This document shows, piece after piece, positions 1 through 7,753 of a stretch of 7,753 nt of DNA. The translations under genes were made by a program, and so were the position numbers. Below the pieces are notes generated by a model. It was not told where the DNA came from, searched no databases, and saw only the letters and a program-made list of their open reading frames with translations. Positions within the stretch are counted from its first letter, which is position 1, and the number at the start of each line of letters is the position of its first letter. The stretch spans positions 1-7,753 of the IMG/VR virus record IMGVR_UViG_2751185961_000003. One strand, given 5' to 3'. Source of the DNA: a virus. Lineage: Duplodnaviria > Heunggongvirae > Uroviricota > Caudoviricetes.

Positions 1-95
1 GCCAGGTCATAAACCTCTTCGGCAGTGACATCGCTGTTCAGTCCCATTTCATGGCGATATATGATTTTTTCTACTCGTTGTTTTGTGATCGTCAT
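1..95 (-). CDS. Hypothetical protein, N-terminal part only (runs off the window start); begins MTITKQRVEKIIYRHEMGLNSDVTAEEVYDL
   Basis: ATG at 93-95 on minus strand with purine-rich GGAG/AAGAG upstream; open frame to position 1; same orientation as the neighbouring operon. Not in ORF track because it is truncated. Confidence 0.4.
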   Translation of the reverse strand, partial: MTITKQRVEKIIYRHEMGLNSDVTAEEVYDL

Positions 96-125
96 TTTTC
101 TCTTCACTCCGATATACAAGGATTA

Positions 126-365
126 CTACACCCCCTCTGCTGATTGCGCGAGCTGGATCCCCTGGTTCCATGCCGTCAATTCCGAAGGCTTCGAAAATGC
201 ATCCATTGCCTTCTGGCGTTGCTCCTGCTTACGGCGTTTATTCCATTTTTTCATGAACAACAGTGACAGCCATCGTCCGCTGCTGAACATGATGTAGAAA
301 TAACCAAGAAGTGCCAGGCCGGTGTTCAGGGCCATATCAATCGTTATCGCCGGGTCAATATTCAC
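126..365 (-). CDS. Small predicted membrane protein (79 aa): N-terminal hydrophobic helix then a highly basic K/R-rich segment
   Basis: GTG start at 363-365 preceded by AGGAGG with 6-nt spacer; start overlaps the 3' end of the upstream gene; hydrophobic stretch LALLGYFYIMF followed by KKWNKRRKQEQRQK. Confidence 0.5.
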   Translation of the reverse strand: MNIDPAITIDMALNTGLALLGYFYIMFSSGRWLSLLFMKKWNKRRKQEQRQKAMDAFSKPSELTAWNQGIQLAQSAEGV

Positions 366-657
366 TGCCCACCTCCTGAAAAATCACCGCATGGCCCAGT
401 TTCTCCGCCAGTGCCAGCTCAGCCCTTGCACCTGCCGACTGCTGCCAGCCTTTCAGCATGTAAACCGCATCCACGCAACGGAGCATTGCCATGCAAATAT
501 CCATGTAGTGTGGTTGAGTCAGCCCGTCCGGAAGTACTGCCGGGTTTAAAACGGTATGCCCTTCCCGTTTCAGTACCTCTTCCGCATTGTGAAACGCCTC
601 ACGGTTGAAATTTTTATACCCGGTCATTGGACCGGCGATATAGACTCTCACCCTCAC
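355..657 (-). CDS. DUF4406 / nucleoside 2-deoxyribosyltransferase-like prophage protein (100 aa)
   Basis: Translation MRVRVYIAGPMTGYKNFNREAFHNAEEVLKREGHTVLNPA matches the family's N-terminal YIAGPMTG motif from memory; GTG start at 655-657 with AGGAGG 7 nt upstream; GTGA start/stop overlap with the upstream gene. Confidence 0.65.
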   Translation of the reverse strand: MRVRVYIAGPMTGYKNFNREAFHNAEEVLKREGHTVLNPAVLPDGLTQPHYMDICMAMLRCVDAVYMLKGWQQSAGARAELALAEKLGHAVIFQEVGSEY

Positions 658-1046
658 TCCATCACCTCCTGAAAGTTTCCCCGATAGAACGCCAGCACAC
701 GCTGCATAACTTCGCTCCTCCTGCTCTCACGACAAATTATGTTCTGCCGTCTGTTGTAACGACGTATTTCTCCGTCAGGTAACTTTCGAATCAGTGTCGG
801 GTCAGCAGCCTTCTCCGGTGTCTTACGCCATACGCGATACGCCTGCTCTGATGGAAATACCCCGCAACCAGAGAGCCAGACATCACCACTGGCCGCAAGC
901 GCACCAGATAAACGACGAATAGCGGTCTTACTGACACCCGTTTTATCTGCCAGTTGTCGAAAAGTTTCTCGTCCGCTCAGGCGCACGAATTCCACAATGC
1001 GCGCCTTCACTTCTTCCCGCTCTTCTGGTGTAAATACTTTTGCCAT
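654..1046 (-). CDS. Helix-turn-helix domain protein (about 130 aa), function unknown
   Basis: ATG at 1044-1046 with GGAGG 5 nt upstream; the ORF-track start at 1061 is a TTG extension. HTH-like segment RQLADKTGVSKTAIRRL. Confidence 0.65.
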   Translation of the reverse strand: MAKVFTPEEREEVKARIVEFVRLSGRETFRQLADKTGVSKTAIRRLSGALAASGDVWLSGCGVFPSEQAYRVWRKTPEKAADPTLIRKLPDGEIRRYNRRQNIICRESRRSEVMQRVLAFYRGNFQEVME

Positions 1047-1061
1047 AAGCGCCTCCGGCAA

Positions 1062-1787
1062 TCACTTTTCCGACACAATACGACCGGATGAATCGACAAT
1101 CTGTCGAACAATATCCCGGTGCTTGTTCAGCTCCCGCAGCGCGGCGCAGACTCGCTCCCACTTCTGAACCTGACCTTTTGCCCGGCGCAGCTCGCGGTTA
1201 GCCACATGCAGCGATGGTAAAATCAGACCATCCGGATGTTTTCTGGTGAACGACGGCTGTGACTGCACTGTGACCGCCACACTTTCCGTTTTTATTTCTT
1301 CCTGTGTTTCTGCTTCCCGGACAGGTAACGCAACACCTGCTGGCTGAGGAAAGGCTTTACCATCGGTTTCCGCTACGGATGCAGCTTCCGGCTCTGCCGG
1401 TAAATCAGCGCCCGGTATGCAGTAACGAAATTTACCGCCCTGATTCACGCGAATCAGACGCCCTTTGCTGATTGCCATGGCCAGCGATGAATTCGCCCGG
1501 CGGGAGGTAATCCCGAACATCAGTGCCAGCTCATCCGCCGTTTGTGGGCCATGTTGTTCAATCGCCTCAGTCAGCATTTGCGCTGTCACTTTCGGTACCG
1601 GTGACACCGGTTCACTTTCACCAGCCTGAATCAGCCGCCACATCGAACCCTTGTTATCCGCTTCACCGCGGCGCTTCAGTTTCCACAGTTCGTTGACCGC
1701 ATCTTCACGGCTGATTCCAAGGCGGGCCGCCACTACCTGTGAAGAGGCTCTTTTCAGTGCTTTCAGTGCGTCAAATACGGTTTCCAT
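1062..1787 (-). CDS. Hypothetical prophage protein (about 241 aa) with two winged-helix-like segments; possibly DUF1627-like
   Basis: ATG at 1785-1787 with GGAGG 8 nt upstream; the ORF-track start at 1805 is a TTG extension. Family guess is from memory only. Confidence 0.6.
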
Positions 1788-1820
1788 TAAAATTTCCTCC
1801 GACAAAATCGTTTCTCAGAT

Positions 1821-2387
1821 TCAAATAAAACCAGCTGCCTTCCGGCGTTCGTATTCCTGTTTCAGCCGTTCAATTGGCGTTGGCCCTTGCGGGTGTTTCG
1901 CCCCTTCCAGTTGTCGTCGCACTGGCGGAACACTCATCCCGTTACCAACATGCTTTGCCCATTTCGTCAGTTGCCGTTCCGCAAGTCGTTTTAACTCACC
2001 CTGCGTCATCTGGCGCTCAATCCCTCTGGTACGCATTTCGAGGCAGATGTGGTACAGCACAGGCTGTGGCCACGGGTATTTATCACTCCCGTCGTATCGC
2101 CAGGATTCATTGCGCCAGCGCCGGTACTCTTCCATCACGGCATCCACCGTAAGACCAAATGGATTTGCCCCACTCTCCGAAATCAGCGCAACAAACTCAG
2201 CCAGGTCCGGGGGCCACGTTTCACCCGCCCGGCAGCGGTCCATGCACTGACGGCAGACCAGCCGGATTTGCTGTTCAGTCATCGTGCCAATCTGGGCAAT
2301 CCAGAGCTTCGAAGGTGCGGCCCCGTTCTTCTGAGTCCAGCGGTTCGAATACACCTCCCCCATAAGCTCCCACAGCTTCCAGGCCAT
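1821..2387 (-). CDS. Lambda P-like replication protein (putative DnaB helicase loader)
   Basis: Translation (WIAQIGTMTEQQ..., PPDLAEFVAL, YPW, MTQGELKRLAERQ) aligns by eye with lambda P as I remember it. Start uncertain: ATG 2385-2387 (MAWKLW) or 2361-2363, both with weak SD; the ORF-track N-terminus to 2483 looks non-coding. Confidence 0.65.
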   Translation of the reverse strand: MAWKLWELMGEVYSNRWTQKNGAAPSKLWIAQIGTMTEQQIRLVCRQCMDRCRAGETWPPDLAEFVALISESGANPFGLTVDAVMEEYRRWRNESWRYDGSDKYPWPQPVLYHICLEMRTRGIERQMTQGELKRLAERQLTKWAKHVGNGMSVPPVRRQLEGAKHPQGPTPIERLKQEYERRKAAGFI

Positions 2388-2991
2388 TTCCGTTGCTGAT
2401 AAATCCGTTGTCTCGTTCCCACTGTTCGCGTGCTGCCCGGATTTCCTGAACTGCCCGTGATGCCGTGCCACCTGATGCTGCATGGCTTACCCCCTTGCTG
2501 ACTGGTTTTACCTGTGCCCTGACGTGCTGCACGTGGCGGGCAAATTTCTGCTCCCACTGAACCTGCGTGAAAACCTTCCCCTCCGCCATCCAGTAATCCC
2601 GGAATGCGGCAAGCTCTGCAGGTGTAAATTCCGGCTCAGGCAGAGCCATACCCCACACTGCTGCCCGTTGTCGAAAATCCGACGACGGCTGCCAGACAGT
2701 AGTCATCGAAAATTTCCCGATCGGTTCGCTCAGGCCGTCCAGGTATTCAGGTTCGGCTGTCTGCAACGGCGCACCATGCGACTCACCGGTTGGAGCACTC
2801 TCGCGCATGCGCGCGTTATGTGTGGGGTTTAATTCTGTATCTGTATCTTTATCTGTCGTGACTTGTCGTGACAGATGCGTGACACGCCGTGACATGTCGT
2901 GACATTTCGTGACGCACTCACCAGAAGGTGGATATACACCGCCATCACTGTTGCGATTGGCTGTCCTGAGACCCTGGCAATGGTTCGCCAT
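2275..2991 (-). CDS. DnaT-like C-terminal domain fragment of a replication initiator (YdaU-like); frame lacks its own convincing start
   Basis: Segment GKFSMTTVWQPSSDFRQRAAVWGMALPEPEFTPAELAAFRDYWMAEGKVFTQVQWEQKFARHVQ closely parallels E. coli DnaT (GKFAMYPDWQPDADF...[20 protein letters not shown]) from memory. Upstream part of this frame runs through the iteron array with no credible SD. Confidence 0.6.
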   Translation of the reverse strand: MANHCQGLRTANRNSDGGVYPPSGECVTKCHDMSRRVTHLSRQVTTDKDTDTELNPTHNARMRESAPTGESHGAPLQTAEPEYLDGLSEPIGKFSMTTVWQPSSDFRQRAAVWGMALPEPEFTPAELAAFRDYWMAEGKVFTQVQWEQKFARHVQHVRAQVKPVSKGVSHAASGGTASRAVQEIRAAREQWERDNGFISNGNGLEAVGAYGGGVFEPLDSEERGRTFEALDCPDWHDD

Positions 2992-3041
2992 TTGGGATCA
3001 TTTGGCATGTCATGCCACAATCTGAGCCAGGCATTAGCCAT
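2829..3041 (-). CDS. N-terminal fragment of the replication initiator (YdaU/DUF1376-like), terminated inside the iteron/AT-rich region
   Basis: ATG at 3039-3041 with GAGG 5 nt upstream; conserved-looking MANAWLRLWHDMPNDPKWRTIARVSGQPIATVMAVYIHLL; stop TAA at 2829-2831; a different frame continues into the DnaT-like domain. Confidence 0.55.
   Translation of the reverse strand: MANAWLRLWHDMPNDPKWRTIARVSGQPIATVMAVYIHLLVSASRNVTTCHGVSRICHDKSRQIKIQIQN
2835..2914. repeat. Iteron-like array: six tandem about 10-bp units (consensus tgtCGTGACa) next to an AT-rich CTGTAT-repeat tract; putative replication origin
   Basis: CGTGAC at 2857, 2867, 2878, 2888, 2898, 2908 (spacing 10, 11, 10, 10, 10); each unit has TGTC/GACA dyad arms; CTGTAT tandem at 2835-2846. 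Confidence 0.7.
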
Positions 3042-3109
3042 ACTCACCTCATCTGATACCGAACTTTACCCTCGAACATCCAGAAGAAATCCGGCATGAA
3101 TATTGTTGG

Positions 3110-3535
3110 TCAATGCACGACAACAGCATTACCAGGCTGACCACCACTGTTAGTCAGGGTGCCCCAGGCGATCGCCGCTGCGACAAAATCATCCACATCT
3201 TTCACCAGCCGATCCCTCCGTTCGACGATCTCACGGTAATATTCAGAGCTGTGACTGCGCATACGGGCCACCAGCAGAGGCGGCATTGCCTTTTCGATCG
3301 CCGGTAACAGAGCCTGAATTTTTTCAACAGCATCAGGGGTGTCTTTATCCAGCCAACGGAAAATTTTCTGGGTATTACGAGCCAGGGCTTCCGGATGGCT
3401 GTCGTCGTACAGTTCCGGGAACGTCATTCCCAGCTCGAAATACGCTTTGGTAATTTTCGCAGCCGGTACTTTTTCGCCGTCCGGATGCGCCCAGACATTC
3501 ATCGCCATGCGGATGTGCTCATGTTTGATTTTCAT
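3110..3535 (-). CDS. YdaT-like (CII-like) prophage regulator, 141 aa
   Basis: ATG at 3533-3535 with GGGAG 7 nt upstream; ATGA overlap with the upstream Cro-like gene; N-terminus MKIKHEHI and gene position (Cro-like, this, replication gene) match the Rac ydaS-ydaT-ydaU arrangement as I recall it. Confidence 0.65.
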   Translation of the reverse strand: MKIKHEHIRMAMNVWAHPDGEKVPAAKITKAYFELGMTFPELYDDSHPEALARNTQKIFRWLDKDTPDAVEKIQALLPAIEKAMPPLLVARMRSHSSEYYREIVERRDRLVKDVDDFVAAAIAWGTLTNSGGQPGNAVVVH

Positions 3536-3786
3536 GAATCAACTCCCATCAGCTTTTTCGTGGTAGTTTTATTTCTGCCAATAGTTAATATTGCATCGGC
3601 AGAAAATAATCCGTTTGATGCAAGAGCGATTTTTTCAGCGTAATTGGTTTCACCGGTATATTCAGTGCGCGGCAATTTCCCGTTATTAATCCACTTGTAG
3701 ATTGCTCTTTGGCTGACACCACAAACGTCGGACACAACAGAAACACGAACAGTTTTGATTACATCTTCAAGTGTGTTCTGGTTCAT
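3532..3786 (-). CDS. Cro/YdaS-like HTH regulator (84 aa)
   Basis: ATG at 3784-3786 with GGAG 5 nt upstream; HTH VSDVCGVSQRAIYKWINNGKLP; divergent from the repressor gene. The ORF-track N-terminal extension to 3858 would cross the promoter region. Confidence 0.7.
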   Translation of the reverse strand: MNQNTLEDVIKTVRVSVVSDVCGVSQRAIYKWINNGKLPRTEYTGETNYAEKIALASNGLFSADAILTIGRNKTTTKKLMGVDS

Positions 3787-3802
3787 ACCATCTCCATAAT
3801 GT

Positions 3803-3865
3803 GAACTTTGGGTACATGATATAGCAGAACTGACAGTACATTCAATAGCGAATATCATTGAACTT
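3803..3865. promoter_or_regulatory. Divergent immunity-region promoters with operator-like repeats (PRM-like plus-strand and PR-like minus-strand)
   Basis: Plus: -35 cTGACA 3830-3835, 17-bp spacer, -10 TATCAT 3853-3858, 7 bp to the ATG at 3866 (leaderless geometry). Minus: -35 TTGAAT (plus 3840-3845), -10 TATATC (plus 3818-3823). Repeats GAAC-N5-GTACAT at 3803-3817 and 3827-3841; dyad TTCAAT-N10-ATTGAA at 3841-3862. Confidence 0.5.
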
Positions 3866-4285
3866 ATGGTTCATGAAGATAAAGCGCGTAAAGAGTTCGC
3901 CAGCAGGCTTGCGCTAGCCTGTGAAAACGCTGGTTATGAACAACACGGGAGGCAGGCAGAAATTGCCCGTCGAATGAAATTAACACCAAAAGCGGTCAGT
4001 AAATGGTTTAATGGCGAAACAATTCCTCGACGAGAGAAATTGAGGGAATTAGCAGCACTCATAGGAACAACGCCAACATATCTTTTGGGCGAGGATACAG
4101 AAAGTAGTGCGCAGGCACGCTTCTATCAGGAGTTAAACCCAAAACAAAAAATCATCATTGACCTTCTAGACGAGCTACCTGACAGTGAAACAGATGAGCT
4201 TTTAAAAACTCTTGAGGAAAAAAAACAGAAGTACAATGCAATTTACGAAGAATTAACACGAAAGAAAAAACAAAAAGCCTCTTGA
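3866..4285 (+). CDS. DicA/RacR-type (cI-like) HTH repressor without peptidase domain, 139 aa
   Basis: N-terminal XRE-type HTH (QAEIARRMKLTPKAVSKWFNGETIPRREKLRELAALIGTTPTYLLGED); acidic/coiled C-terminus (LLDELPDSETDELLKTLEEKKQ) with DicA-like architecture; no SD, consistent with a leaderless transcript. Confidence 0.75.
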   Translation: MVHEDKARKEFASRLALACENAGYEQHGRQAEIARRMKLTPKAVSKWFNGETIPRREKLRELAALIGTTPTYLLGEDTESSAQARFYQELNPKQKIIIDLLDELPDSETDELLKTLEEKKQKYNAIYEELTRKKKQKAS

Positions 4286-4373
4286 TCCAGCATAAATCCG
4301 GTAACATCCCTCCGGGTTTGTGCTTCACTTAATCCCTCCTCATTTTTTTAAACATAAAATGTACTAAAAGTAC

Positions 4374-4406
4374 TTTACACAAATGAACAAAAAGTACATC
4401 ATACAT
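4374..4406 (+). promoter_or_regulatory. Candidate left-operon promoter/operator (OL-like): third copy of GAAC-N5-GTACAT
   Basis: GAAC 4385-4388, GTACAT 4394-4399, same spacing as the two copies at 3803-3841; TTTACA at 4374-4379 is a possible -35, with only weak -10 candidates 17 bp downstream; nearby GTACT-AAAA-GTACT at 4361-4375. Confidence 0.35.
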
Positions 4407-4578
4407 CTACCAACCCACCCCGCTCCACAGAACGCCAGGCAATACTTCGAGTTACCAGGCAGTGGCAAGGGGTTAAGTAGCCAGCCCGAGGCGTAAGAAC
4501 ATGACGGCAGGGTTCAACTTTAACTATGCAGCAGGTTTTTGTTCCGCTCCCCCGGCGTTAAGGGGAAATGAGGTCAGC

Positions 4579-4731
4579 ATGGATACTATCGAGCTTGGCA
4601 ACAGCGAATCTCTGGTATGCGGCGTGTTTCCCAACCAGTACGGCACGTTTACCGCGATGACGTATACCAAAAGTAAAACGTTTAAAACCGAAGCTGGCGC
4701 GCATCGCTGGTTAGCAAGAAACTCCGACTGA
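4579..4731 (+). CDS. YdfA-like small protein (DUF1391), 50 aa
   Basis: ATG 4579-4581 with GAGG 5 nt upstream; MDTIELGNSESLVCGVFPNQYGTFTAMTYTKSKTFKTEAGAHRWLARNSD resembles Qin YdfA from memory. ORF-track start at 4501 has no SD. Confidence 0.6.
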   Translation: MDTIELGNSESLVCGVFPNQYGTFTAMTYTKSKTFKTEAGAHRWLARNSD

Positions 4732-4742
4732 TGAGGTTGACG

Positions 4743-5144
4743 ATGGAATTTAAAGATTTACCAGTACCATTCCAGGAAATGGCATCGAATGCGGTTCGCT
4801 CTCAACTGGCGACTCTTGACCTGAGTACCGTAGAAAAAGAAACCATCGATACTATATCCGGTAACGTGCGTCGTGCCTTTATAGGTCTGTATGAAGAGAA
4901 GCGCCTATTCGGCGGACAGAATTCGCCTGAAAACAAGAATCAAGCAAATGATGAGAAGCTGAAACACATTATCGCCTTACTTTTGGAAGACGCAAAACGT
5001 CTACAGCAACTGGAACCAAATGCAGGCACAGAGGCCCGCATTTGGATTGCCATGAAATCACTCAAATGTGAAAGCAGTGATTATTTCAAAACAACAATTA
5101 AAACTACTCAACTTTCGGGAGAGCTACTGAAGAAATTGCCATAA
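4743..5144 (+). CDS. Hypothetical protein (133 aa), no family recognised; sits where ydfB/ydfC lie in Qin
   Basis: ATG 4743-4745 with GAGG 6 nt upstream; alternatively ATG 4731 overlapping the upstream stop (TGATG). Helical-looking, no transmembrane segment. Confidence 0.6.
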   Translation: MEFKDLPVPFQEMASNAVRSQLATLDLSTVEKETIDTISGNVRRAFIGLYEEKRLFGGQNSPENKNQANDEKLKHIIALLLEDAKRLQQLEPNAGTEARIWIAMKSLKCESSDYFKTTIKTTQLSGELLKKLP

Positions 5145-5383
5145 GAGCATGGTCTTTCTCTTGTTCTGCAAGATGAGCATTAATACCTGGTATGGTTTTT
5201 TCAAATTTATCTATCTGTTGAATAACAACTTCGCGGTATACGTTTGTTTTTGTACCACCAAGCGCAGCCGTTAATGCAGAAAGCATATTTAGTATCATAT
5301 CAGTACGATATGAAAAGAATCCTGATAGCTTCATCTTGTTTTTCAATAATAGATTGCAGGGCCTCAATTTGCTTTTTATCCAT
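5104..5383 (-). CDS. AT-rich convergent ORF with frame ambiguity: 27-aa peptide from the SD-supported ATG, or a frameshifted about 90-aa protein
   Basis: AGGAGG (5389-5394) 5 nt upstream of ATG 5381-5383 gives MDKKQIEALQSIIEKQDEAIRILFISY then stop; the 94-aa track ORF is in another frame whose GTG start (5386-5388) abuts the SD. 3' end overlaps the plus-strand gene by 41 nt. Confidence 0.3.
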
Positions 5384-5704
5384 TTCACCCTCCTGAGGGT
5401 TGGTAATTAAGGAGTTCTCCACGGGTCAGGTGGAGTGCGTGCGCCGGACACGGGTGAGCATCCGGCACTGACAGTTTACTGAAAGGATATGTCCCTGAAA
5501 AGTCAGGGCATAACGCGAAAGCGCACGGCGAAATTGGTCTCTCTGTACGGTGTCGTTAAATTTAGTTCGACCGTGCACTTCCGGTTGTGGCACTCCGCGA
5601 AATGGCGCGGCGGTAAGTATGGCTGGGGTTTCCTCCATTGCTCCAGAAAATGCACCGGGTTGTCAGGTTGACCATACGCTTAAGTGACAGCCCCGCCACA
5701 ATAC

Positions 5705-5762
5705 CCATGCGTAGTCTTTGGTGGCATCAGTTCTACTCCGTGACTGCTCTGCCACCCTTTTT
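5705..5762 (+). ncRNA. dicF: DicF-like small RNA (cell-division-inhibiting sRNA homolog)
   Basis: 3' 41 nt (tttggtggcatcagttctactccgtgactgctctgccaccc + T5) about 90% identical to E. coli K-12 DicF as I remember it, with a compensatory stem change (GGCGG/CCGCC to GGTGG/CCACC); located just upstream of a dicB homolog. Confidence 0.55.
5720..5762 (+). terminator. Intrinsic terminator-like hairpin forming the DicF 3' end
   Basis: Stem GGTGGCA (5720-5726) / TGCCACC (5750-5756) followed by CTTTTT (5757-5762). Confidence 0.5.
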
Positions 5763-5944
5763 AAAGTGAATTTTGTGATGCGGTGAATGCGGCTATGCGC
5801 ACGCGGAACAGTTAAAACCGTAAAGTGGTCTTTTACGGGGCGTAACGGGCATCCTTCTGTATTCCGGCGTTAATTGTTAACTGGTTAACGTCACCTGGAG
5901 GCACCAGGCACTGCATCACAAAATTCATTGTTGAGGACGCGATA

Positions 5945-6133
5945 ATGGAAACGTTATTACCAAACGTTAATACGTCTGAAGGTTGTTTTGATATTGGTGT
6001 TCTGCTCAGTAACCGGGAGTTTACGGAAGATGCCATTAAGATGAGAAAATATGAACCTTATCTTCTCAATGATAATTCCATACTTTCCAGAATTGCCCTT
6101 CTTGAACTTGGTATTATCGGAGAACAGCAGTGA
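5945..6133 (+). CDS. dicB: DicB-like cell division inhibitor, 62 aa
   Basis: METLLPNVNTSEGCFDIGVLLSN... closely resembles K-12 DicB N-terminus (MKTLLPNVNTSEGCFEIGV...) from memory; GAGG 8 nt upstream of ATG; follows the dicF-like element. Confidence 0.8.
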   Translation: METLLPNVNTSEGCFDIGVLLSNREFTEDAIKMRKYEPYLLNDNSILSRIALLELGIIGEQQ

Positions 6134-6318
6134 CTTCAGCGTTTGCACTGATAATGACCGTTTTTCTTATAACGGGTGAGCCGCAGAATGTGATTACCGG
6201 AATTTATGACAGTAAGTCATCCTGCATTCAGGTAAGGGACGAACAAAAAATCCCCGGTGAATGCCTCCCGTTAAAAAAAGTATCGCTGTACCTGAATAAC
6301 GAAACACCGGCTGGATAA
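6130..6318 (+). CDS. YdfD-like small protein (62 aa)
   Basis: GTG start overlapping the dicB stop (GTGA) with GGAG 7 nt upstream; MTSAFALIMTVFLITGEP... has a hydrophobic N-terminus and sits where ydfD follows dicB in Qin. Confidence 0.6.
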   Translation: MTSAFALIMTVFLITGEPQNVITGIYDSKSSCIQVRDEQKIPGECLPLKKVSLYLNNETPAG

Positions 6319-6410
6319 CCCGCCAGCCATATTAACGCCATACCAACGGATTAAAAATGCCAGCAATGGCAGGAATTTGTTCATCCTTAAAATGGTTATG
6401 AGGTTTATCA

Positions 6411-7753
6411 ATGAACGCTGATAAAGAAGAAATTGCACTATATTACGAAGCCAAAAATGACAAAGTCAGAAAACGCCTTGGGATTAAAGGTGGTTTTTAC
6501 TGGCGCACAGCAAAAAAATTATCGGTTGCAATATCACGCGGTGTTGCTGCAATGGACGATGCCGGATTTGACGAAGAGGATTTTAAAAAACCCATCCGCG
6601 TCCATTTACCCGTTGTGAATGACCTTCCACCGGAAGGTGTGTTTGATACTGAATTCTGCAACCGATACGAAAAAGGCGGAGAAGATGGTATCACAATGAT
6701 ATTTATAGCGCCCTCCCCCTCAGTTCAGGACAAACCAGCCAGCACTGACAATACCAACGTCAATGGCGAAGACATGGCTGAGATTGAGGATAATATGCTC
6801 CTGCCGATTTCCGGTCAGGAACTGCCCATTCGCTGGCTTGCGCAACATGGCAGCGAAAAACCGGTAACGCACGTTTCACGAGAAGAACTTCAGGCATTAC
6901 ATATCGCACGAGCTGAAGAACTACCGGCTGTTACTGGCCTGGCTATTTCCCACAACACAAAGCTGCTCGACCCGCTGGAGATTCGCGACCTTCACAAATT
7001 GGTACGCGACACTGACAAAGTTTTCCCTAATCCCGTTAATTCCAGTCTGGGGTTCATGACTGCTTTTTTCGAAGCATACCTGGACACTGACTATACCGAT
7101 CGAGGTCTGCTGACAAAAGAGTGGATGAAAGGAAATCGTGTTTCTCGCATCACCCGCACGGCTTCCGGTGCAAATGCCGGTGGCGGAAATAAAACCGATC
7201 GTAATCCTGACTTAGTACACACCCTCGATACTCTGGATGTGGAGGCTGCAGCAGCCACGCTTCCGATGGATTTTAATATTTATGAAATTCCCGGGAGCGT
7301 TTATCGTCGCGCAAAAGAAATCGTCCTGAAAAAAGAAAGTCCGTTCAGGGAATGGTCCGCAGCACTTCGCGCAACCCCTGGTATCCTGGACTATTCCCGC
7401 GCAGCTATTTTTGCACTTATCCGAAGCGCCCACCCTGAGTTTTATCACTACCCGGGGCGCCTTCAGGGGTATATCAATGCCAACCTGACAGAAACTGATC
7501 ACGAGAATCCCACAGCTGAAACGCTCATGGCTGCCCGGCATACACCGGAAAAAGATATCCTGGAAGAAATTAACGGCGGACTGGCTGCTGAGTGCAAAAC
7601 AGAAGAAGAAAAAAATGATGAAGATAACCCGCAGCCGCTGGATGACAAGTCACAGGTAAAAGTTACCGCTGACGAAGTAAACAAAATTATGCAGGCAGCC
7701 AATATCAGCCAGCCTGACGCCGATAAGTTGCTTGCTGCCTCTCGCGGAGAATT
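6411..7753 (+). CDS. Large RecE-like (exodeoxyribonuclease VIII, N-terminal region) ORF, truncated at the window end (447 codons seen, no stop)
   Basis: ATG 6411 with GAGG 7 nt upstream; my own translation is open to position 7753. Segments NVNGEDMAEIEDNMLLPISGQELPIRWLAQHGSEKPVTHVSR and KLLAASRGE match my recollection of Rac RecE. Absent from the ORF track because it lacks a stop. Confidence 0.55.
   Translation, partial: MNADKEEIALYYEAKNDKVRKRLGIKGGFYWRTAKKLSVAISRGVAAMDDAGFDEEDFKKPIRVHLPVVNDLPPEGVFDTEFCNRYEKGGEDGITMIFIAPSPSVQDKPASTDNTNVNGEDMAEIEDNMLLPISGQELPIRWLAQHGSEKPVTHVSREELQALHIARAEELPAVTGLAISHNTKLLDPLEIRDLHKLVRDTDKVFPNPVNSSLGFMTAFFEAYLDTDYTDRGLLTKEWMKGNRVSRITRTASGANAGGGNKTDRNPDLVHTLDTLDVEAAAATLPMDFNIYEIPGSVYRRAKEIVLKKESPFREWSAALRATPGILDYSRAAIFALIRSAHPEFYHYPGRLQGYINANLTETDHENPTAETLMAARHTPEKDILEEINGGLAAECKTEEEKNDEDNPQPLDDKSQVKVTADEVNKIMQAANISQPDADKLLAASRGE

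What the first reader, a model, noticed from the sequence alone, without database searches (positions are those of the whole stretch)
6411..7753. Long plus-strand ORF missing from the ORF track because it runs off the window
Translating from ATG 6411 gives an uninterrupted frame of 447 codons to the window end, with a good SD. It also shows that the minus-strand track ORFs at 7212-7541 and 7499-7702 are antisense artefacts. The visible part resembles the RecE N-terminal region of unknown function rather than the C-terminal nuclease domain.
Basis: partly seen in the sequence, partly recalled or inferred. Interest (0 to 1): 0.35.

Follow-up and report, generated by a model that had tools for sequence, protein, structure and literature searches.

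The report
Prophage RecE-like exonuclease gene, cut off
The open frame is real and is the first 57% of a very common E. coli prophage gene whose front half resembles RecE, but whose unseen back half is almost certainly a different (3'-to-5', DnaQ-like) exonuclease followed by excisionase and integrase, not the RecE nuclease and recT.

Summary
Observation confirmed. ATG 6411 opens 447 stop-free codons to the window end, preceded by an in-frame TGA (6399-6401) and GAGG 7 nt upstream. Substitutions against homologues fall mainly on codon position 3.

The visible part does match the RecE N-terminal region: Pfam PF06630, and 51% identity to K-12 RecE residues 50-465 (88% over aa 113-265).

The implied continuation, a RecE PD-(D/E)XK nuclease followed by recT, is not supported:
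- Draft contig L005 is 99.94% identical to window 6152-7753 and runs on into a DEDDh 3'-5' exonuclease domain (Pfam PF16473, Rv2179c-like).
- Collinear Qin-site prophages carry the complete gene, 785 aa. In one of them the first 447 aa are identical to the window's. It is followed by an excisionase-like gene and an integrase, with no recT.
- The full-length relative fails NCBI's RecE equivalog cut-off (823 vs 1269 bits).

RecE and this protein share about 590 N-terminal residues and differ only in the catalytic domain. Proteins with a K-12-identical N-terminus occur with either domain.

The hybrid is ordinary. Its DEDDh-coding DNA is in 4070 of 5426 complete E. coli genomes, against 1736 for the recE nuclease domain. 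Its function is untested, and the N-terminal fold matches nothing known. Already annotated; low interest.

The parts
6400..6403 (+). Shine-Dalgarno-like GAGG, 7 nt upstream of the ATG. It overlaps the upstream in-frame TGA at 6399-6401.
   Evidence: Read directly from the sequence.
6411..7753 (+). Partial CDS: codons 1-447 of a predicted 785-codon gene. By extrapolation the stop would lie at window coordinate 8766-8768. The product is a RecE-type N-terminal region joined to a DEDDh 3'-5' exonuclease.
6411..6707 (+). aa 1-99: predicted alpha/beta module (pLDDT 75-91). The first ~57 aa form a variable 'head' that does not align with K-12 RecE.
   Evidence: AlphaFold2 model; BLASTP alignment to RecE starts at aa 58.
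6576..6977 (+). aa 56-189: match to Pfam PF06630 (Exonuc_VIII, N-terminal region of enterobacterial exonuclease VIII).
   Evidence: 114 bits, E=1.1e-32, cut-off 25.
6747..7205 (+). aa 113-265: the core most conserved with K-12 RecE (134/153 identical, 87.6%). It contains the predicted helical module aa 126-250.
7218..7490 (+). aa 270-360: second predicted helical module, and the segment covered by most cluster representatives. It is 35% identical to K-12 RecE and 32% identical to the YdfE-type 823-aa exonuclease (L002 aa 245-381).
7542..7715 (+). aa 378-435: acidic linker predicted with low confidence. At about 7627-7633 this allele lacks an in-frame 81-bp (27-aa) segment that the 812-aa alleles have.
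   Evidence: pLDDT 30-50; indel seen.
7716..7753 (+). aa 436-447 'DADKLLAASRGE': start of the highly conserved linker block shared by RecE, the DEDDh hybrids and the YdfE-type proteins. Beyond the window it continues as FVxGISDPNDPKWVKG and then a CxxC...CxxC zinc-ribbon-like motif.
   Evidence: Alignment A1; 11/12 identical to K-12 RecE.
7212..7541 (-). Antisense ORF (109 aa), judged an artefact.
   Evidence: No PHROG match. Its codon position 1 coincides with the sense frame's position 3, where substitutions concentrate.
7499..7702 (-). Antisense ORF (67 aa, TTG start), judged an artefact.
   Evidence: Ser/Cys-rich low-complexity peptide with no PHROG match. It lies opposite a protein-coding frame that has 100% identical database proteins.
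5706..6318 (+). Upstream genes of the same rightward (+) transcription unit: DicF sRNA 5706-5757, dicB 5945-6133, and a DUF1482/ydfD-like gene 6130-6318. Order and orientation match K-12 Qin (dicF-dicB-ydfD-ydfE).
   Evidence: Rfam RF00039 at 58.9 bits; annotation of aligned relatives; K-12 Qin map.

Best explanation
The ORF is the 5' 57% of the last cargo gene of the early-left (immunity-distal) operon of a Qin-like lambdoid prophage of E. coli. The operon runs repressor, DUF1391, DicF, dicB, ydfD-like, this gene, then xis and int.

The complete product, 785 aa in the closest relatives, has two parts. The first is a ~590-residue RecE-type N-terminal region. It comprises three predicted folded modules, acidic linkers, a conserved 'LLAASRGEFVxGISDPNDPKWVKG' block and a zinc-ribbon-like CxxC...CxxC motif. 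The second is a C-terminal DEDDh (DnaQ/Rv2179c-like) exonuclease domain.

Shown: the reading frame, the homology, the domain architecture of identical or near-identical full-length relatives, and the gene neighbourhood.

Inferred: the protein is a metal-dependent 3'-to-5' exonuclease. The RecE-type N-terminal region acts as a catalysis-independent adaptor that brings whichever nuclease domain it carries to its substrate or partner. In phages that lack a strand-annealing protein, the enzyme trims 3' ends of nucleic acid during lytic development, in place of the 5'-to-3' resection that RecE performs for RecT.
For: - Frame and start. Purifying selection on this frame.
- N-terminal homology: PF06630; NF007259 model positions 1-404 only; K-12 RecE 51% identical over aa 58-447, 87.6% over aa 113-265.
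- Continuation: contig L005 is 99.94% identical to window 6152-7753 and runs on into 'LMIDLETMG...'.
- P0004 and P0005 are 100% identical over all 447 aa and carry PF06630 plus PF16473. All 30 of the best 120 hits that are 649 aa or longer carry PF16473, and none carries PF12684.
- Collinear prophages L009, L011, L012 and L014 have a 785-aa gene with PF06630 plus PF16473, followed by DUF1233 and an integrase. L012 is identical to the window over the first 447 aa; L009 and L014 differ at one residue.
- L001 and L003 (812 aa) have PF16473 at E=1e-61 to 1e-67 and are followed by xis/int.
- Homology with RecE ends at RecE residue ~590, exactly where its nuclease domain begins.
- DEDDh motifs are present in the relatives: DLET, NF(D/E)N, HNALDD.
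- Portability of the N-terminal region: among cluster representatives of 550 aa or more, 25 carry PD-(D/E)XK, 14 carry DEDDh and 34 carry neither. Proteins whose first 470 aa are 100% identical to K-12 RecE occur with PF16473 as well as with PF12684.
Against: - The catalytic domain lies outside the window, so its identity rests on relatives. One search shows that N-terminal identity alone does not fix the C-terminal type.
- No member of this hybrid family has been characterised in any paper I could find. Activity, polarity and substrate (DNA or RNA; the family founder Rv2179c is described by Pfam as an exoribonuclease) are therefore inferences.
- The predicted N-terminal modules match no known fold: best Foldseek E-value 1.3 against PDB and 0.59 against BFVD. 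The adaptor role thus has no structural support.
- In the closest relatives (L009, L003) the ExoII acidic residue is Glu rather than the usual Asp.
Confidence: 0.85

Rival explanations
1. It is a genuine recE: the unseen C-terminus is the PD-(D/E)XK 5'-3' nuclease domain and recT follows, as in Rac.
For: The N-terminal region is clearly RecE-type. One search shows that one and the same N-terminus can be joined to either nuclease domain, so the window alone cannot exclude this.
Against: None of the 120 closest proteins carries PF12684, and all 30 that are long enough carry PF16473. A contig 99.94% identical in DNA continues into the DEDDh domain. All eleven related loci whose gene is annotated or called full-length with this domain have xis/int, not recT, after the gene. 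The upstream context is Qin-like (dicF-dicB-ydfD), not Rac-like (kilR-ydaE-racC).
Confidence: 0.04
2. In the source genome the gene is a remnant, truncated or interrupted downstream of the window, and makes no active nuclease. K-12 ydfE, cut by IS2, and the many 646-aa 'RecE family' proteins without a nuclease domain are examples of this.
For: Truncated forms are common. The same prophage copy carries a 245-bp deletion that splits its replication O-like gene, which suggests some decay. IS insertions occur right beside the gene in relatives: IS4 in L003 and IS600 in L001.
Against: The 447 visible codons are intact and identical to those of complete 785-aa genes. Substitutions show purifying selection.
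Confidence: 0.1
3. The long frame is a chance or non-coding open frame, and one of the minus-strand ORFs is the real gene.
For: Nothing apart from the existence of the minus-strand ORFs.
Against: The probability of the open frame by chance is about 7e-10. Substitutions are biased to the third position. There are thousands of homologous proteins and curated family matches. The antisense peptides match no family.
Confidence: 0.01

Closest known systems
RecE (exonuclease VIII) of the E. coli K-12 Rac prophage
   Same: The N-terminal ~590 residues are homologous: 55% identity between the 785-aa relative (aa 58-588) and RecE (aa 50-592), rising to 87.6% in the core at window aa 113-265. Both share the PF06630 match, the conserved 'LLAASRGEFVxGISDPNDPKWVKG' block and the zinc-ribbon-like motif. 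Both sit in a prophage early-left operon near xis/int.
   Different: The first ~57 aa do not align. The catalytic domain differs: RecE has a PD-(D/E)XK 5'-3' nuclease (PF12684, residues ~600-866), whereas relatives of this gene have a DEDDh 3'-5' exonuclease (PF16473). No recT partner follows. The full-length relative fails the NF007259 equivalog cut-off.
Annotated E. coli prophage 'exonuclease' / '3'-5' exoribonuclease domain-containing protein' (for example WP_069357116.1, 812 aa, strain CFSAN004176; the 785-aa allele in GCA_023019145.1)
   Same: This is the same gene. L012 is identical to the window over all 447 aa. WP_069357116.1 is 90% identical with a 27-aa indel. Neighbours are the same: dicB, DUF1482, then xis/int.
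   Different: Nothing of substance. The window shows only the first 447 codons and belongs to the shorter (785-aa) allele.
Rv2179c of Mycobacterium tuberculosis, founder of Pfam PF16473 (3'-5' exoribonuclease Rv2179c-like, DEDDh)
   Same: The C-terminal ~175 residues of the full-length relatives match the whole PF16473 model (positions 1-177) at E=1e-61 to 1e-67.
   Different: From my own knowledge, not tested here, Rv2179c is a small stand-alone protein. In the prophage protein the domain is the tail of a ~785-aa polypeptide, its substrate is unknown, and it lies outside the window.
ydfE pseudogene of the K-12 Qin prophage, and the intact YdfE-type 823-aa exonucleases (L002, L015, L016)
   Same: It occupies the same position in the same operon at the same chromosomal site (dicF-dicB-ydfD-[gene]-int next to rspB). 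The intact forms carry the same linker and the same DEDDh C-terminal domain.
   Different: The N-terminal ~245 residues are unrelated: ydfE gives no BLASTP hit to the window ORF. Only aa ~270-400 are distantly similar (32%), and the block from aa ~416 onward is shared.
DnaQ-type nuclease genes of lambdoid early-left operons (Zheng et al. 2025, Genome Res, PMC12315714)
   Same: That paper reports DnaQ-like 3'-5' nuclease genes in lambdoid phages. [quoted passage not shown]
   Different: The passages I read do not describe the fusion to a RecE-type N-terminal region. I could not check whether its phage panel includes this protein, because no supplementary files are held.

Membership tests
RecE / exodeoxyribonuclease VIII (NCBIfam NF007259 equivalog) | N-terminal Exonuc_VIII region (Pfam PF06630) | tested here: met
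   114 bits against a cut-off of 25, aa 56-189.
RecE / exodeoxyribonuclease VIII (NCBIfam NF007259 equivalog) | Whole-protein score at or above the curated equivalog cut-off (1269 bits) | tested here: not met
   The fragment scores 598 bits and matches model positions 1-404 of 877 only. The complete 785-aa relative, identical over the visible part, scores 823 bits. K-12 RecE scores 1830.
RecE / exodeoxyribonuclease VIII (NCBIfam NF007259 equivalog) | C-terminal PD-(D/E)XK nuclease domain (PF12684; RecE residues ~600-866) | not testable with these tools
   This lies beyond the window end. In identical and near-identical relatives it is absent and replaced by PF16473. It is present in K-12 RecE and in 25 of 73 long cluster representatives.
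RecE / exodeoxyribonuclease VIII (NCBIfam NF007259 equivalog) | Adjacent recT (strand-annealing partner) downstream | not testable with these tools
   This lies beyond the window end. In all eleven related loci whose gene is annotated or called full-length with the DEDDh domain, the next genes are xis-like and int, not recT. In K-12, recT follows recE.
DEDDh 3'-5' exonuclease, Rv2179c-like (Pfam PF16473) | Presence of the domain | not testable with these tools
   The domain is not in the window. It is present at E=1e-61 to 1e-67 in L001, L002 and L003. It is also present in P0004 and P0005, which are 100% identical over the window's 447 aa, and in L009, L011, L012 and L014.
DEDDh 3'-5' exonuclease, Rv2179c-like (Pfam PF16473) | Exo I (DxE), Exo II (NxxF-D) and Exo III (Hx4D) catalytic motifs | tested here: inconclusive
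   Tested in relatives only. D608-L-E610-T and H758-N-A-L-D-D are present. Exo II reads NFDN in L001 and L002 but NFEN in L003 and L009. The assignment of catalytic residues is by motif, not by structure.
DEDDh 3'-5' exonuclease, Rv2179c-like (Pfam PF16473) | 3'-5' exonuclease activity | not testable with these tools
   This requires biochemistry. No paper on this protein was found.
Qin-type lambdoid prophage early-left operon | Gene order repressor - DUF1391 - DicF - dicB - ydfD(DUF1482) - exonuclease gene | tested here: met
   HTH repressor 3866-4285 and DUF1391 4501-4731. DicF 5706-5757. dicB 5945-6133 and DUF1482 6130-6318, by alignment to annotated relatives. K-12 Qin map.
Qin-type lambdoid prophage early-left operon | Integration next to ynfP-rspB | not testable with these tools
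   The attachment site is outside the window. Collinear relatives L009, L011, L012 and L014 are integrated next to genes whose Pfam families match rspB, rspA, ynfA, ynfB and speG.

The most novel reading that the evidence does not exclude
The RecE-type N-terminal region may be an autonomous, portable module. On this reading, recombination within the conserved linker exchanges it between exonuclease domains of opposite polarity: PD-(D/E)XK 5'-3' in RecE and DEDDh 3'-5' here. The module also occurs with no recognisable nuclease domain. It would deliver whatever it carries to a common, still unknown target such as DNA ends, SSB or the replisome. The uncharacterised DEDDh hybrids are present in about 75% of complete E. 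coli genomes, in four times as many places as recE. They would then represent an unstudied phage DNA-end-processing or anti-defence activity, and a handle on the long-standing question of what the RecE N-terminus does.
Probability: 0.3. Interest if true: 0.5.

Novelty: already known. Interest (0 to 1): 0.15.

Why it matters
For annotation, the point is practical. A fragment that looks like 'RecE N-terminus' should not be called recE, and a neighbouring recT or RecET recombination function should not be inferred from it. In E. coli the same N-terminal region is joined more often to a DnaQ-like 3'-5' exonuclease (8114 places in 4070 complete genomes) than to the RecE nuclease (1827 places in 1736 genomes).

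Biologically, the window adds nothing new, since identical proteins are already deposited. The family it belongs to is nevertheless a natural domain-swap experiment on the RecE N-terminal region, whose function has been unknown for decades.

Tried and rejected
1. I looked for the exact source of the window. No complete E. coli genome or phage record covers it end to end; the best are 96-97% identical over 67-74% of the window. The closest DNA is a 2.4-kb draft contig (L005) and collinear Qin-site prophages. The unseen 3' part is therefore inferred, not read.

2. I tried to assign a fold to the visible 447 aa. The AlphaFold2 model built on a 38-sequence alignment reached mean pLDDT 68.5 and pTM 0.35, with three folded modules. 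Foldseek against PDB and BFVD gave nothing below E=0.59. A PDB sequence search gave no hit. The second structure job and the third fold search were not used; a domain-by-domain search might still find something.

3. Defence or anti-defence role: PADLOC gave no match for the full-length relative.

4. Literature: I found no paper on the RecE-N/DEDDh hybrid, on PF06630 or PF16473 in prophages, or on ydfE function. One query ('full-length RecE' matched at word start) was wasted on 'receptor' hits.

5. Conservation of the antisense ORFs in homologues was uninformative, because the homologous DNA is 97-99% identical there.

6. Chi-site enrichment, as expected for phages without a Rec module that depend on RecBCD: only one Chi in the window, which is not significant.
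Full report
**Observation**

Translating window 6411-7753 on the + strand gives 447 codons without a stop. The frame is closed just upstream by TGA at 6399-6401. ATG 6411 is the first possible start after that stop, and the next in-frame start is at 6552. GAGG at 6400-6403 sits 7 nt before the ATG. With the window's base composition, the chance of 447 open codons is about 7e-10, and the other five frames of the stretch carry 10-35 stops each. The ORF is missing from the mechanical ORF list only because ORFs that run off the end are not listed. Differences from homologous DNA fall mostly on codon position 3: 7/9/34 against L001, 20/7/66 against L003, and 6/6/40 against K-12 recE. This is the signature of a translated, selected frame.

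**The antisense ORFs**

ORFs 7212-7541 and 7499-7702 on the minus strand exist. They encode Cys/Ser/Phe-rich peptides and match no PHROG family. Codon position 1 of 7212-7541 coincides with the sense frame's wobble position. ORF 7499-7702 shares third positions with the sense frame, so that argument is neutral for it. Their conservation in relatives says nothing, because the DNA there is 97-99% identical. Given the strength of the sense-strand evidence, calling them artefacts is reasonable.

**What the visible part is**

- The 447 residues match Pfam PF06630, 'Enterobacterial exodeoxyribonuclease VIII', over aa 56-189 (114 bits, cut-off 25).
- They match PHROG 607 over their whole length.
- They match NCBIfam NF007259 (exodeoxyribonuclease VIII equivalog), but only over model positions 1-404 of 877 and with 598 bits against a cut-off of 1269.
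- BLASTP against K-12 RecE aligns aa 58-447 with RecE 50-465 at 51% identity.

The similarity to K-12 RecE is very uneven:

| Window aa | Identity to K-12 RecE |
|---|---|
| 58-112 | 27% |
| 113-265 | 87.6% |
| 266-377 | 35% |
| 378-435 | 26% |
| 436-447 | 92% |

[quoted passage not shown] It is dispensable for nuclease activity but enhances linear-linear recombination (PMC11611040).

**What lies beyond the window**

- *Close E. coli matches.* The best-matching complete E. coli genomes annotate the gene as 'exonuclease' or '3'-5' exonuclease', 812-823 aa long. It is followed directly by excisionase and integrase genes, not recT. Pfam places a complete Rv2179c-like DEDDh 3'-5' exonuclease domain (PF16473, E=1e-61 to 1e-67) at their C-termini and finds no PD-(D/E)XK domain.
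- *Large protein collection.* Five deposited partial E. coli proteins (P0001-P0005) are 100% identical to the window's 447 aa. The two long enough to reach the catalytic domain (P0004, 649 aa; P0005, 705 aa) carry PF06630 plus PF16473. Among the best 120 hits, all 30 proteins of 649 aa or more carry PF16473 and none carries PF12684.
- *Nearest DNA.* The contig encoding P0005 (L005) is 99.94% identical to window 6152-7753, with one mismatch in 1602 nt. It continues for 771 nt through 'FVAGISDPNDPKWVKG', a CTACGQTGGGNCPDCG zinc-ribbon-like motif and the Exo I motif 'LMIDLETMG'.
- *Collinear prophages.* Looking up contigs that encode the window's own repressor (3866-4285) returned collinear prophages. 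They are 99.8% identical to window 1-2904, 98% to 2879-4902 and 97% to 5381-7753. In four of them (L009, L011, L012, L014) the gene is complete at 785 aa, with PF06630 plus PF16473, followed by a DUF1233 (excisionase-like) gene and an integrase. L012's protein is identical to the window's over all 447 residues, and L009 and L014 differ at one residue.
- *Extrapolation.* The stop would lie at window coordinate 8766-8768.
- *Membership.* The full-length L012 protein scores 823 bits on the RecE equivalog model, below the 1269 cut-off. K-12 RecE scores 1830.

**Anatomy of the family**

Aligning the DEDDh-type proteins with K-12 RecE shows homology up to RecE residue ~590 ('...ETGE(T/V)ADP'). The sequences then diverge completely, which is exactly where the RecE nuclease domain begins.

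The shared part contains:
- a variable head;
- the PF06630 core;
- a second, more divergent module;
- acidic linkers;
- an almost invariant block, 'DKLLAASRGEFVxGISDPNDPKWVKG', whose first 12 residues are the last residues of the window;
- a conserved CxxC...CxxC motif.

An exhaustive phmmer search of 1.84 billion cluster representatives found only 215 clusters with E at or below 1e-3, so the N-terminal region forms a narrow family. Every source-named hit in my searches came from Escherichia, Shigella or Salmonella. Among representatives of 550 aa or more, 25 have the RecE-type PD-(D/E)XK domain, 14 have the DEDDh domain and 34 have neither. Ten of the 'neither' class showed only PF06630 or nothing in Pfam.

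Most tellingly, proteins whose first 470 residues are 100% identical to K-12 RecE occur with PF16473 (789 aa, for example P0402) as well as with PF12684. The catalytic domain is therefore exchanged by recombination within the conserved linker. It also follows that the N-terminus alone does not predict the C-terminus. That is why I rest the call on exact-match contigs and collinear prophages rather than on family resemblance.

**Context**

The window is the immunity and early region of a lambdoid prophage.

- On the minus strand: DUF4406, DUF977, DUF1627, a lambda-P-like gene, a DnaT-domain O-like gene, a ydaT-like gene and a small HTH gene.
- On the plus strand: an HTH repressor (3866-4285), DUF1391 (4501-4731), an unknown 137-aa ORF, the DicF sRNA (5706-5757; Rfam 58.9 bits against a cut-off of 48), dicB (5945-6133), a DUF1482/ydfD-like gene (6130-6318), and then the ORF.

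This is the gene order of the K-12 Qin cryptic prophage: dicA, ydfA, ydfB, ydfC, dicF, dicB, ydfD, ydfE, intQ. The collinear relatives are integrated next to genes whose Pfam families match K-12's rspB, rspA, ynfA, ynfB and speG, which is Qin's site.

The ORF is thus the positional counterpart of the K-12 pseudogene ydfE. However, ydfE belongs to a third N-terminal type: it is 91% identical to the 823-aa L002 type and gives no BLASTP hit to this ORF.

Zheng et al. [quoted passage not shown] That is the position seen here.

**How common it is**

DNA encoding the DEDDh C-terminal domain is found in 4070 of 5426 complete E. coli genomes, at 8114 places and up to 7 per genome. DNA encoding the K-12 RecE nuclease domain is found in 1736 genomes, at 1827 places. 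In E. coli, therefore, a 'RecE-like N-terminus' is more often attached to the 3'-5' exonuclease than to the RecE nuclease.

**Mechanism**

Shown: the frame, the N-terminal homology, the architecture and neighbourhood of identical and near-identical relatives, and the presence of Exo I (DLET) and Exo III (HNALDD) motifs in those relatives.

Inferred, in three steps:
1. The complete protein is a metal-dependent 3'-5' exonuclease.
2. The N-terminal ~590 residues are a catalysis-independent adaptor, since the same region serves nuclease domains of opposite polarity and also occurs without one.
3. In these prophages, which carry no strand-annealing protein in the loci examined, the enzyme processes 3' ends during lytic development rather than generating the 3' tails that RecE makes for RecT.

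The substrate (DNA or RNA) is open.

I tried to obtain structural support for a role of the visible part. AlphaFold2, run on a 38-sequence alignment, predicts three folded modules: aa 1-99 alpha/beta, aa 126-250 helical and aa 270-360 helical. They are separated by low-confidence linkers (mean pLDDT 68.5, pTM 0.35). Foldseek found nothing below E=0.59 in PDB or BFVD. There was no PDB sequence hit and no PADLOC match. The adaptor idea therefore rests on comparative architecture only.

**Comparison, novelty and verdict**

The ORF is a member of an already deposited and annotated gene family, with identical proteins in NCBI. It is not a RecE by the curated equivalog test, although it shares RecE's N-terminal region. 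Nothing in the window itself is new.

The one mildly interesting aspect lies outside the window and is not proven to be undescribed. It is the natural swapping of exonuclease domains of opposite polarity on an N-terminal region whose function has long been unknown. I found no paper that describes it.

Noticed in passing
window 5706-5757 (+): A complete DicF antisense sRNA gene (Rfam RF00039, 58.9 bits against a gathering score of 48, model positions 1-52 of 52). It lies upstream of dicB (5945-6133), as in the K-12 Qin prophage.
   Followed up: partly
window 2867-2914 and ORFs 2275-2991 / 2829-3047 (-): Five CGTGAC(A/G) iteron-like repeats spaced ~10 bp apart lie inside the DnaT-domain O-like replication gene. 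Compared with every collinear relative the window lacks 245 bp here, apparently through a deletion between two repeat arrays. This splits the ~345-aa gene into two overlapping ORFs in different frames. Either the prophage is replication-defective or the assembly collapsed the repeats.
   Followed up: partly
window ~7627-7633: An in-frame 81-bp (27-aa) indel in the acidic linker distinguishes this 785-aa allele from the 812-aa alleles (L001, L003). The two BLAST pieces overlap by 7 bp at the junction, which suggests a deletion between short repeats ('NPQP...DPQP').
   Followed up: partly
proteins P0391, P0394, P0402 (789 aa) vs P0398, P0401, P0408; also P0392, P0124, P0390, P0393: Proteins whose first 470 aa are 100% identical to K-12 RecE carry either the DEDDh domain (PF16473) or the PD-(D/E)XK domain (PF12684). 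Others are fused directly to RecT (PF03837; 703-807 aa) or to an integrase domain (PF00589; 675 aa). These are presumably deletions that remove the nuclease domain and join the RecE N-terminus to downstream genes.
   Followed up: no
L003 and L009 vs L001 and L002 (alignment A1, column ~855): The acidic residue of the presumed Exo II motif is Glu ('GANFEN') in the closest full-length relatives and Asp ('GANFDN') in others. This is natural D/E variation at a presumed catalytic position of the DEDDh domain.
   Followed up: no
window 4731-5144 (+) and 4903-5380: A 137-aa ORF of unknown function (PHROG 1363, no Pfam match). The window segment 4903-5380 is not shared with the otherwise collinear Qin-site prophages, so it is a small mosaic replacement between DUF1391 and DicF.
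   Followed up: no
cluster representatives P0183, P0190, P0219, P0239, P0257, P0173 (715-789 aa): Long proteins share only the aa ~225-400 module of the N-terminal region and have no Pfam domain at all. They may be the 'RecE-2' proteins without a nuclease domain that Zheng et al. 2025 mention.
   Followed up: partly
L007 and L010, 12494-14851: The gene caller reports only a 570-aa product starting at 13139, although the 785-codon frame is open from 12494 and the DNA differs from L009 by one base in 2500. This is probably a start-codon or calling difference, not a real truncation.
   Followed up: partly
window 3268-3275 (-): There is a single Chi site (GCTGGTGG) in 7.75 kb, which is not enriched (0.35 expected; 59 of 200 shuffles have at least one). 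The loci examined show no strand-annealing gene, a condition linked elsewhere to high Chi density.
   Followed up: partly
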